Assembly: GCF_003334815.1 (NCBI RefSeq)
Contig: NZ_QOWO01000004.1
Strand: one strand, 5' to 3'
Source: Escherichia coli
GTDB lineage: Bacteria > Pseudomonadota > Gammaproteobacteria > Enterobacterales > Enterobacteriaceae
Length of the DNA stretch: 64,000 nucleotides
Made by a program: the position numbers. Shown here piece by piece: positions 35,101 through 38,100 of the stretch (the first letter of the stretch is position 1; each line of letters opens with the position of its first letter).

Positions 35101-38100
35101 GAAACTGTAATAGCAATTTTTAATCGTGAACTACAGAATATATTCAACCAAGAAATAGAATAATATACTCTAGATAATTAAAGTCGCAGCACATGCAACT
35201 TGAAGTATGACGAGTATAGCTTTCTTAAAGGGGGAAACGGTATTCCCCCTTAGATGCGTTTCAATTTGCCCGTTACTTCAACAAATCAATCAACCGTAAC
35301 AGAGCCACTAATAACTCCAGTACGGCAATGAGCACGGTTAACTTTTGTGTCAGCGTGTCCATCCGCTCTCCTTATTAAGGAGCGCAACACCAGCACCTTA
35401 CCCTTACACTGCCTGTTGATACTGGTTTACGTATGTTGGTACGAAACGTTGCTCTCCGGATCAGGGCACCGCCTGCGGCACCACCCGTCCGGCAGCCAGG
35501 ACTTAAAATTGGTCCGATCCGGCACAACCTCCCAACGGGCAGGATTATAAATCTCACTCACTGAATTGCAATGGAGTGTGGATATGGTTATAATTTATTC
35601 GTTGGTACGAAATGTTGCACAATCAGCAAGTTAGCGTCACTGTAGTAAATAAAAGAACCTGCCTCACCAGCAGGTTTTTTTATTTACTGCGATCTACTTT
35701 CCAGATATTTTTTGCCAATAGCCCAACTTAAATATTCACATCCCGGTCAAATGGTGCGTTGAATATAAAATCGATGAATTTATAAATAAAAATGAGTTAT
35801 ATGATGAATTAATAAAAACAGTAATCATTTTATTAAAGGGGGAAGCGGTTTTCCCCCTTAGATGCGTTTCAATTTGCCCGTTACTTCAACAAATCAATCA
35901 ACCGTAACAGAGCCACTAATAGCTCCAGTACAGCAATGAGCACGGTTAACTTTTGTGTCAGCGAGTCCATCCGCTCTCCTTATTAAGGAGCGCAACACCA
36001 GCACCTTACCCTTACACTGCCTGTCGATACTGGTTTACGTATGTTGGACCACGATGTTGCACTCCGGATCAGGGCACCACCTGCAGCACCCCCCGTCCGG
36101 TAGCCAGGACTTGAAATAGGTTCGATCCGGCGCAACGTCCCAACAGTCAGGATTATAAATCTCATTATCTTAATTGCAACGGGGTCCAGCCGTGGTTATA
36201 ATTCGTTCGTTGGAACACGATGTTGCACAGGCTGTGGTGTTAGGCCTGAAAATAGTAAATAAAAGAACCTGCCTCACCAGCAGGTTTTTTTATTTACTGC
36301 GATCTGCTTTCCAGATATTTTTTGCTCAAACAACTAATGCGCCAAACATTTATTGCGCGTAAAATATCGTTTATTTCATTAATACATTTCAGGGATGAAT
36401 ATATGTCACCGCAGAATAATCATCTGCAGCGTCCGCCTGCTGCTGTGTTATACGCCGATGAACTGGCAAAATTAAAACAAAATGATAACGCTCCTTGCCC
36501 GCCCGGTTGGCAGTTAAGTTTGCCTGCGGCCCGTGCTTTTATCCTTGGCGATAGCGCGCAAAATATTAGCCGTAAAGTGGTGATTAGTCCCTCCGCTGTC
36601 GAACGTATGTTAGTCACTCTTGCCACCGGGCGCGGTTTGATGTTGGTGGGGGAACCTGGCACCGCAAAATCTCTCCTGTCTGAATTACTGGCAACCGCTA
36701 TTAGCGGCGATGCCGGGTTAACCATCCAGGGCGGCGCATCTACTACCGAAGATCAAATCAAGTACGGCTGGAACTACGCCCTGCTTATCAATCATGGTCC
36801 ATCAACGGAAGCGCTGGTCCCTGCCCCGCTTTACCAGGGAATGCGCGACGGCAAAATCGTCCGTTTTGAAGAGATAACGCGTACACCGCTGGAAGTGCAA
36901 GACTGTCTGTTAGGTATGCTTTCTGACAGGGTGATGACGGTGCCGGAACTCACTGGTGAAGCCAGTCAGCTCTATGCGCGAGAAGGCTTTAATATTATTG
37001 CCACTGCCAATACCCGCGATCGCGGCGTCAATGAAATGAGTGCTGCGCTAAAGCGTCGCTTCGATTTTGAAACTGTCTTTCCGATTATGGATTTCGCCCA
37101 GGAGCTGGAGCTTGTCGCCAGTGCTTCGGCGCGTTTGCTGGCCCATAGCGGTATTCCGCATAAAGTGCCTGACGCGGTACTGGAGTTACTGGTCCGCACC
37201 TTCCGCGATCTGCGTGCCAACGGCGAAAAGAAAACGTCAATGGATACACTAACAGCGATTATGTCCACCGCTGAAGCCGTGAACGTGGCCCACGCCGTAG
37301 GCGTCCGCGCCTGGTTTTTAGCGAATCGCGCAGGTGAGCCAGCCGACCTGGTGGACTGCATTGCCGGAACCATCGTCAAAGATAACGAAGAAGATCGCGC
37401 TCGTCTGCGCCGTTACTTCGAACAACGAGTCGCCACACATAAAGAAGCTCACTGGCAGGCTTATTATCAAGCCCGCCACCGCCTGCCGTGAGGAAAGATG
37501 CATGAGCGAGCCGTTAATTGTCGGCATCCGGCATCATAGTCCGGCCTGCGCCCGGCTGGTGAAATCGTTAATCGAAAGCCAGCGGCCACGATACGTATTG
37601 ATTGAAGGCCCGGCTGATTTTAATGACCGGGTAGACGAACTGTTTTTAGCCCACCAGCTTCCGGTAGCTATTTACAGTTATTGCCAGTATCAGGACGGTG
37701 CAGCCCCCGGGCGTGGTGCCTGGACGCCATTTGCTGAATTTTCGCCGGAGTGGCAGGCGCTACAAGCCGCACGTCGTATTCAGGCACAAACTTACTTCAT
37801 CGATTTGCCTTGCTGGGCGCAGAGTGAAGAAGTGGACGATTCGCCTGATACGCAAGAGGAAAGCCAGGCCTTGCTGCTGCGTGCCACCCGCATGGATAAC
37901 AGCGACACCCTGTGGGATCACTTGTTCGAAGATGAAAGCCAGCAAACTGCATTACCCTCTGCACTGGCGCACTATTTTGCCCAACTGCGGGGCGACTCCC
38001 CCGGAGATGCTCTCAATCGTCTGCGCGAAGCCTTTATGGCCCGCTGGATTGGATGGGCGATGCAGCAAAATAATGGCGACGTGTTAGTTGTCTGCGGTGG

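What the first reader, a model, noticed from the sequence alone, without database searches (positions are those of the whole stretch)
35544..35594. Divergent toxin and antitoxin promoters share a single self-complementary -35 hexamer (TTGCAA)
TTGCAA at 35566..35571 (and again at 36174..36179) reads the same on both strands. It lies 17 nt upstream of the plus-strand TATAAT of the sRNA and 16 nt upstream of the minus-strand TATAAT of the toxin mRNA. RNA polymerase binding for the toxin and antitoxin transcripts would then be mutually exclusive at the -35 element, giving a built-in competition between the two. I do not know whether this has been noted before.
Basis: seen in the sequence. Interest (0 to 1): 0.45.

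Follow-up and report, generated by a model that had tools for sequence, protein, structure and literature searches.

The report
Shared -35 in zor-orz promoters
The sequence is the already published promoter core of the E. coli zor-orz toxin/antitoxin-RNA genes, where one palindromic TTGCAA serves as the -35 box for both outward-facing promoters. The idea that the two promoters compete for RNA polymerase is plausible but generic and untested.

Summary
In both tandem copies the sequence reads ATTATA-16 nt-TTGCAA-17 nt-TATAAT. These are the only divergent promoter-like pairs sharing a -35 in the 64-kb window, and none appeared in 300 shuffles.

The locus is the known zorO-orzO / zorP-orzP type I toxin-antitoxin pair, located between yehK and yehL. 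Published start sites place zorO +1 at 35536 and OrzO +1 at 35601. They are 65 bp apart and each lies 6-7 nt after its TATAAT.

Across 16 copies from E. coli and three other Escherichia species, 1 of 18 hexamer columns varies against 20 of 33 spacer columns. The 16/17 spacing never changes.

The hexamers are already published: Shore 2024 lists "-35 (TTGCAA)" for both genes with identical conservation figures. No text I could search discusses the sharing.

Mutually exclusive polymerase binding follows from geometry. Its regulatory weight is untested, and published work on overlapping promoters shows interference only at high occupancy.

Two additions from this work:
- The same outward-facing design recurs in phage contigs (at least 120 hits against 32 for a composition-matched control).
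- dinQ/agrA has a similar back-to-back layout.

Verdict: real, ordinary, already known. The competition idea is a reasonable experiment, not a discovery.

The parts
35566..35571 (.). Palindromic TTGCAA, the -35 hexamer for both the zorO promoter (minus strand) and the orzO promoter (plus strand)
   Evidence: Invariant in 16 copies. Published as the -35 of both genes.
35544..35549 (-). zorO promoter -10 hexamer TATAAT, 16-nt spacer from the -35
   Evidence: The start site derived from the literature lies 7 nt downstream.
35589..35594 (+). orzO promoter -10 hexamer TATAAT, 17-nt spacer from the -35
   Evidence: OrzO +1 lies 6 nt downstream.
35363..35536 (-). zorO 5' UTR of 174 nt. +1 is at 35536, the RBS AAGGAG is at 35373..35368, and the OrzO target site is at 35435-35452.
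   Evidence: Coordinates computed from published numbers and the sequence.
35273..35362 (-). zorO toxin ORF, 29 aa: MDTLTQKLTVLIAVLELLVALLRLIDLLK
   Evidence: It differs from the copy-2 ORF at residue 3 (T versus S), the ZorO/ZorP difference stated.
35601..35681 (+). OrzO antitoxin sRNA (about 81 nt). Its first 18 nt are complementary to the zorO 5' UTR. The terminator stem is at 35656-35676.
   Evidence: Rfam RF02083 scores 88.8 bits against a gathering score of 60. Complementarity is, +1, and the terminator.
36174..36179 (.). Shared palindromic -35 TTGCAA of zorP and orzP (second tandem copy)
36152..36157 (-). zorP promoter -10 TATAAT with a 16-nt spacer. +1 is inferred at 36144, giving a 174-nt UTR.
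   Evidence: The start site is inferred by analogy with zorO.
36197..36202 (+). orzP promoter -10 TATAAT with a 17-nt spacer. +1 is inferred at 36209.
35881..35970 (-). zorP toxin ORF, 29 aa: MDSLTQKLTVLIAVLELLVALLRLIDLLK
36209..36291 (+). OrzP antitoxin sRNA
   Evidence: Rfam RF02083 scores 99.9 bits.

Best explanation
The 51-bp segment is the core of two back-to-back (tail-to-tail) sigma-70 promoters of the zor-orz type I toxin-antitoxin module. One drives the toxin mRNA leftward from 35536. The other drives the antitoxin sRNA rightward from 35601, 65 bp away. Both read the same six base pairs, TTGCAA, as their -35 element. TTGCAA is the palindromic hexamer that keeps the TTG of the consensus.

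Sigma region 4 of a polymerase bound in either orientation needs those same base pairs. Each polymerase also covers roughly -55 to +20. So only one polymerase can sit on the module at a time; this step is inferred. How far this shapes expression depends on how long each promoter stays occupied.

The most likely outcome is a modest bias, not a switch. The conserved asymmetry is a 17-nt spacer and AT-richer discriminator for orz, against a 16-nt spacer and GC-rich discriminator for zor. This plausibly favours the antitoxin promoter (inferred). The dominant control of toxin synthesis remains post-transcriptional, as published: an inert full-length 5' UTR, processing, OrzO pairing, and RNase III.
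For: Shown in the sequence:
- The hexamers and spacings are as described.
- The arrangement is not expected by chance.
- Among palindromic hexamers the best possible match to TTGACA is 4 of 6, and TTGCAA is the one that keeps TTG.

Shown from the literature combined with coordinates:
- Both mapped start sites fit the -10 hexamers, and the start sites are 65 bp apart.
- The locus identity is secure.

Shown by comparison:
- Sixteen copies (13 distinct) from E. coli, E. whittamii and two unnamed Escherichia species keep all three hexamers. One of 18 hexamer columns varies against 20 of 33 spacer columns (Fisher p = 1e-4).
- The 16/17 spacing is invariant.
- Shore 2024 reports TTGCAA in 99.4% of 2,439 loci.

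Concept:
- Tail-to-tail overlapping promoters interfere in proportion to occupancy.
- Bidirectional promoters compete only when one direction is strongly active.
Against: - No mutational or footprinting data show that either promoter needs the TTGCAA.
- The zor spacer is 16 nt, which is sub-optimal.
- Conservation of the -35 would be expected even if only one promoter used it.
- The claim of bias towards orz rests only on general promoter rules.
- In the similarly arranged dinQ/agrA pair, UV induction of dinQ did not change agrA/agrB levels. This argues that interference in such modules can be negligible.
Confidence: 0.6

Rival explanations
1. Strong built-in competition. The shared -35 makes toxin and antitoxin initiation a zero-sum choice. 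This sets the toxin-to-antitoxin ratio and produces anticorrelated bursts, acting as a transcriptional switch.
For: - Both promoters are near-consensus, at 10 of 12 with perfect -10 hexamers, so occupancy could be high.
- Strong promoters do repress overlapping partners.
- The exact 16/17 geometry is conserved across species.
- The outward-facing design is enriched in phage contigs at optimal spacing on both sides.
Against: - No expression data exist for this locus.
- All five natural bidirectional promoters tested elsewhere showed no competition at basal activity.
- agrA/agrB levels did not change when dinQ was induced.
- Known zor control is post-transcriptional.
Confidence: 0.2
2. The sharing is only apparent. 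One of the two promoters, most likely zor with its 16-nt spacer, does not depend on TTGCAA and works from its consensus -10 alone. The hexamer then belongs functionally to orz only.
For: - The -35 assignments in the literature are called 'predicted'.
- A perfect TATAAT can support some -35-independent initiation (general knowledge).
Against: - There is no TGn extended -10 on the zor side.
- The alternative registers score only 3 of 6 (ATTGCA at 17 nt, read).
- The 16-nt spacing is invariant even though 8 of 16 spacer positions vary.
Confidence: 0.1
3. The palindrome is the operator of a dimeric regulator that controls both promoters together, not merely a -35 box.
For: It is a perfect 6-bp palindrome, invariant across copies. 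In copy 1 the symmetry extends imperfectly to CACTGAATTGCA / TGCAATGGAGTG.
Against: - The extended symmetry is absent from copy 2 and from other species.
- The flanks are asymmetric: a conserved AA on one side and variable bases on the other.
- Six base pairs is too short for a typical operator.
- No regulator has been reported.
Confidence: 0.05
4. Close divergent placement gives positive coupling, through transcription-generated negative supercoiling or through each A+T-rich -10 acting as an upstream element for the other promoter.
For: - Divergent promoters can be topologically coupled (titles and abstracts).
- Each TATAAT lies about -53 to -58 from the opposite start site, computed coordinates. 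That is where UP elements act (general knowledge).
Against: - The transcripts are very short (81 nt and about 300 nt), so they generate little supercoiling.
- A polymerase bound on one side covers the other's -10.
- There are no data.
Confidence: 0.1

Closest known systems
zorO-orzO / zorP-orzP type I toxin-antitoxin locus of E. coli (Fozo 2010; Wen 2014, 2017; Shore 2024); Rfam OrzO-P RF02083
   Same: It is this locus. It has the same toxin peptides, sRNAs, yehK-yehL position, 174-nt UTR, pairing site and published hexamers (TTGCAA / TATAAT).
   Different: Nothing structural differs. The papers tabulate the same -35 for both genes but do not comment on the sharing or on polymerase competition.
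Tail-to-tail overlapping divergent promoters with RNA polymerase interference (Bendtsen et al. 2011, PMC3167631)
   Same: The reverse start site lies at -65, inside their -80..+20 overlap window. RNA polymerase at one promoter acts as a repressor of the other. They count 314 of 2281 E. coli promoters in this class.
   Different: Here the overlap is an exact coincidence of the two -35 hexamers on a palindrome. Interference has not been measured.
Bacterial bidirectional promoters that share a symmetric -10 element (Warman/Grainger; PMC12825309)
   Same: One symmetric element is read in both orientations, and one binding event excludes the other.
   Different: The shared element there is the -10, according to the source. 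In zor-orz the -10 hexamers are separate, the start sites are 65 bp apart, and the -35 is shared.
dinQ-agrA/agrB type I locus of E. coli K-12
   Same: - The sRNA promoters also use TTGCAA, a 17-nt spacer, TAnnAT, and +1 GTT.
- The divergent toxin -10 lies 14 nt from that TTGCAA.
- The start sites are about 63 bp apart.
- The flanks are similar: CAGGTTATAAAAC against CAGGATTATAAATC.
   Different: - The 14-nt distance is too short for dinQ to use the same hexamer as its -35.
- dinQ is repressed by LexA.
- The dinQ start site was estimated here, not read from the paper.
tisB-istR and shoB-ohsC (the other divergent type I loci)
   Same: The toxin and the sRNA are divergent, and the sRNA pairs with a long 5' UTR.
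   Different: The published promoter hexamers are separate. ohsC TTGTAA and shoB GTGACC lie about 70 bp apart. The tisAB -10 and the istR-2 -35 do not coincide.

Membership tests
zor-orz type I toxin-antitoxin (Rfam OrzO-P RF02083) | The sRNA matches the OrzO-P covariance model above its gathering score | tested here: met
   88.8 and 99.9 bits against a gathering score of 60.
zor-orz type I toxin-antitoxin (Rfam OrzO-P RF02083) | A divergent 29-aa hydrophobic toxin ORF, with ZorO and ZorP differing at T3S | tested here: met
   The two ORFs differ only at residue 3 (T versus S), as stated.
zor-orz type I toxin-antitoxin (Rfam OrzO-P RF02083) | The 5' end of the sRNA is complementary (about 18-19 nt) to the toxin 5' UTR | tested here: met
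   OrzO nt 1-18 pair with 35435-35452, with one G-U pair. OrzP has 13 contiguous complementary nt, and the match continues beyond them.
zor-orz type I toxin-antitoxin (Rfam OrzO-P RF02083) | Chromosomal position between yehI/yehK and yehL | tested here: met
   Homologous places in E. coli genomes are flanked by yehK and yehL.
zor-orz type I toxin-antitoxin (Rfam OrzO-P RF02083) | The toxin is toxic and is repressed by the sRNA | not testable with these tools
   Shown experimentally in the literature.
Sigma-70 promoter | -35 and -10 hexamers near consensus, 16-18 bp apart | tested here: met
   All four promoters match 10 of 12 positions, with spacers of 16 or 17 nt.
Sigma-70 promoter | A mapped start site 5-8 nt downstream of the -10 | tested here: met
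   zorO +1 at 35536 leaves a 7-nt gap. OrzO +1 at 35601 leaves a 6-nt gap. Both were derived from published numbers and a published primer.
Sigma-70 promoter | Transcription depends on the -35 hexamer | not testable with these tools
   No mutational data were found.
Tail-to-tail overlapping promoters with polymerase interference | The divergent start site lies within -80..+20 of the partner | tested here: met
   The start sites are 65 bp apart. The criterion is given.
Tail-to-tail overlapping promoters with polymerase interference | The activity of one promoter rises when the other is disabled | not testable with these tools
   This needs in vitro transcription or reporter fusions.
Bidirectional promoter sensu Warman/Grainger | A single shared, symmetric -10 element | tested here: not met
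   There are two separate -10 hexamers 45 bp apart, and the -35 is the shared element.

The most novel reading that the evidence does not exclude
The 'one palindromic -35, two outward -10s' module is a selected device. It makes toxin and antitoxin initiation mutually exclusive on each chromosome copy. This would fix their ratio and shape cell-to-cell noise. It would be an ancestral feature shared with dinQ/agr and reused widely in phage genomes as a compact two-way promoter.
Probability: 0.15. Interest if true: 0.5.

Novelty: already known. Interest (0 to 1): 0.22.

Why it matters
If competition were real, it would add a transcriptional layer to a toxin-antitoxin system that is currently explained entirely by RNA-level control. 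It would also provide a clean natural model for polymerase exclusion at a shared -35.

As it stands, the finding mainly confirms a published promoter annotation. The phage survey adds a small point: this compact two-way promoter design is not unique to zor-orz.

Tried and rejected
I used a degenerate codon pattern instead. It found only three non-coli Escherichia loci plus two chance hits, in a Muribaculaceae MAG and a Megamonas MAG.
- I looked for an explicit published statement about a shared -35 or competition in five zor-orz papers and their supplements. None was found.
- The Fozo 2010 supplement with the primer-extension figure is not held. Bogati 2022 (J Bacteriol) is not held either.
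- Phrase searches for overlapping or shared -35 elements gave nothing useful beyond an Acinetobacter ddrR-umuDAb case.
- I tested whether the other divergent type I loci share a -35. By their published hexamers, tisB/istR and shoB/ohsC do not.
- I tested for an extended dyad that would suggest a regulator's operator. It is present only imperfectly in copy 1 and is not conserved.
- A first clustering of the phage hits on shared 10-mers was too lax. I redid it on spacer identity.

Full report
**1. Is it there?**

Yes. The plus strand at 35544-35594 reads ATTATA-AATCTCACTCACTGAA-TTGCAA-TGGAGTGTGGATATGGT-TATAAT. The consensus scan reports four promoter-like sites in 35100-36450.
- Two use TTGCAA at 35566-35571: plus strand with a 17-nt spacer to TATAAT at 35589-35594, and minus strand with a 16-nt spacer to TATAAT at 35549..35544.
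- Two use TTGCAA at 36174-36179 in the same layout.
- Each matches 10 of 12 consensus positions.

In the whole 64-kb window, these are the only divergent promoter-like pairs whose -35 hexamers overlap by at least 4 bp. None of 300 dinucleotide-preserving shuffles produced such a pair at 10 of 12 or better. The two copies are a tandem duplication, so they are one event.

**2. What is it?**

It is the zor-orz type I toxin-antitoxin locus.
- Rfam family OrzO-P (RF02083) matches 35608-35681 at 88.8 bits and 36216-36291 at 99.9 bits, against a gathering score of 60.
- Divergent from each sRNA is a 29-aa hydrophobic ORF. These are MDTLTQKL... at 35362..35273 and MDSLTQKL... at 35970..35881. They differ at T3S, exactly as ZorO and ZorP do.
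- The segment is found in 5,232 of 5,426 complete E. coli genomes, between yehK and yehL. RefSeq does not annotate zor or orz in the records fetched.
- The first 18 nt of OrzO are complementary to 35435-35452 in the zorO leader, with one G-U pair.

**3. Do the mapped start sites fit?**

Fozo et al. 2010 mapped the start sites of both mRNAs and both sRNAs by primer extension.
- Wen et al. 2017 give a 174-nt zorO 5' UTR with the RBS at +164..+169.
- With the ATG at 35362 and AAGGAG at 35373..35368, both numbers place +1 at 35536. That is 7 nt after the minus-strand TATAAT.
- The OrzO cloning primer in the Wen 2014 supplement (GACGTC|GTTGGTACGA...) places OrzO +1 at the G at 35601. That is 6 nt after the plus-strand TATAAT.
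- The start sites are therefore 65 bp apart and back to back.
- By analogy, zorP +1 is 36144 (again a 174-nt UTR) and orzP +1 is 36209.

**4. Is it under constraint?**

A degenerate-codon scan of one genome per species found zor genes in E. whittamii and two unnamed Escherichia species. All of them carry ATTATA-16-TTGCAA-17-TATAAT.

I added nine E. coli records, including K-12, which keeps orz but has lost the toxin. This gave 16 copies, of which 13 are distinct.
- One of 18 hexamer columns varies (a single TATGAT).
- Twenty of 33 spacer columns vary (Fisher p = 1e-4).
- Both spacer lengths are invariant.

This agrees with Shore et al. 2024: TTGCAA in 99.4% and TATAAT in 100% and 99.8% of 2,439 loci. 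Those authors also note that such conservation is normal for E. coli promoters. Conservation of the -35 cannot by itself show that both promoters use it.

**5. Mechanism**

What is shown:
- There are two near-consensus promoters.
- Their start sites are 65 bp apart.
- Their best -35 candidates are the same six base pairs.

Among palindromic hexamers the best possible match to TTGACA is 4 of 6. TTGCAA is the one that keeps TTG.

What is inferred from general knowledge of RNA polymerase:
- Sigma region 4 binds the -35.
- The polymerase footprint covers about -55 to +20, a figure also quoted.
- Two polymerases therefore cannot occupy the module together.

Whether this matters for expression is open.
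- Bendtsen et al. 2011 define this tail-to-tail overlap class (314 of 2,281 E. coli promoters). They show that interference scales with the time the polymerase spends on the competing promoter, and that single mutations in the competitor's hexamers abolish it.
- A 2026 study of shared -10 bidirectional promoters found no competition at basal activity in five of five cases. Competition appeared only when one direction was strengthened or activated.
- I therefore commit to exclusive occupancy with a modest effect that probably favours the antitoxin. The orz promoter has a 17-nt spacer and an AT-richer discriminator. The zor promoter has a 16-nt spacer and a CCTGCCC discriminator.
- The main control remains at the RNA level.

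**6. Has it been noted?**

The hexamers are boxed or printed in bold in Wen 2014 Fig. 1A and Wen 2017 Fig. 1A. Shore 2024 Table 3 prints "-35 (TTGCAA)" once, with the same percentage for Zor and Orz.

I found no sentence discussing the sharing or its consequences. A 2025 review says in general terms that divergent type I promoters may suffer promoter interference. Two sources could not be read.

**7. Context added here**

(a) Other divergent type I loci.
- tisB/istR and shoB/ohsC do not share a -35 by their published hexamers.
- dinQ/agrA is similar. agrA and agrB both use TTGCAA-17-TAnnAT. The dinQ -10 lies 14 nt from the agrA TTGCAA, which gives start sites about 63 bp apart by my estimate. 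The flanks resemble those of zor.
- UV induction of dinQ left agrA/agrB levels unchanged. This is a hint against strong interference in such modules.

(b) Phage contigs.
Spacing classes 17/17: mixed: 16/16 are 92:24:5, and 60% of sites lie outside long open frames.
- The inward-facing control of identical composition occurs in 32 contigs. Its spacing classes are 7:13:12, and 29 of 32 sites lie inside open frames.
- After clustering related sites, the ratio for the outward-facing pattern is 28:13:2.
- The design therefore recurs. Many phage cases may still have only one working direction.

**8. Verdict**

The identity and promoter assignment are already known. The competition hypothesis is reasonable, generic and untested. 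Interest is low to modest.

Noticed in passing
L168 (E. coli K-12 NC_000913.3 3647000-3649500) 1000-1300: The agrA and agrB promoters also use TTGCAA as their -35 (L168 1028-1033 and 1259-1264), with a 17-nt spacer and +1 'GTTAG'. The divergent dinQ -10 (TATAAC, 1013..1008) lies 14 nt from the agrA TTGCAA, so dinQ and agrA are back to back about 63 bp apart. The flanks resemble the zor side, which suggests that the zor/orz and dinQ/agr promoter cores may share ancestry.
   Followed up: partly
viral contig loci L016-L135 (test) and L136-L167 (control): Outward-facing ATTATA-N16/17-TTGCAA-N16/17-TATAAT is found in at least 120 phage contigs, mostly at 17/17 spacing and in non-coding DNA. The composition-matched inward-facing control is found in 32 contigs, mostly inside genes and with chance-like spacing. 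A single palindromic -35 flanked by two outward -10s looks like a recurrent phage promoter design.
   Followed up: partly
L007 (E. coli K-12 W3110) 1500-1600: The orz-only locus of K-12 keeps the complete zor promoter and about 30-40 nt of zor leader. It points antisense into the 3' end of yehK. Whether it fires is unknown.
   Followed up: no
window 35537-35543 and 36145-36151 versus 35595-35600 and 36203-36208: The toxin promoters have GC-rich discriminators (CCTGCCC, CCTGACT). The sRNA promoters have AT-richer ones (TTATTC, TCGTTC). This could make the two sides respond differently to growth rate or ppGpp.
   Followed up: no
L011 (K-12 shoB-ohsC) 963-990: An unannotated minus-strand consensus match (TTTACA-16-TAGCAT) overlaps the ohsC -35 (TTGTAA, 984-989) by 5 bp. 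The published shoB promoter is elsewhere (GTGACC/TAAAAT).
   Followed up: no
whole window: TTGCAA is under-represented. There are 18 occurrences against 40.9 +/- 6.2 in dinucleotide-preserving shuffles, and all 100 shuffles had at least as many.
   Followed up: no
L015 1190-1320 (E. coli strain 135): This is the one natural variant of the orz -10 (TATGAT instead of TATAAT) among the 16 copies. It would serve as a natural test strain for promoter interplay.
   Followed up: no
L012 (E. coli S1-INA-02-A) 700-1485: An IS1A element is inserted next to a truncated zor/orz remnant. Only 85 nt of the remnant match.
   Followed up: no
E. coli RefSeq records L006-L009, L013-L015: None of the zor ORFs or orz sRNAs are annotated in the RefSeq records fetched, although the locus is present in most E. 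coli genomes.
   Followed up: no
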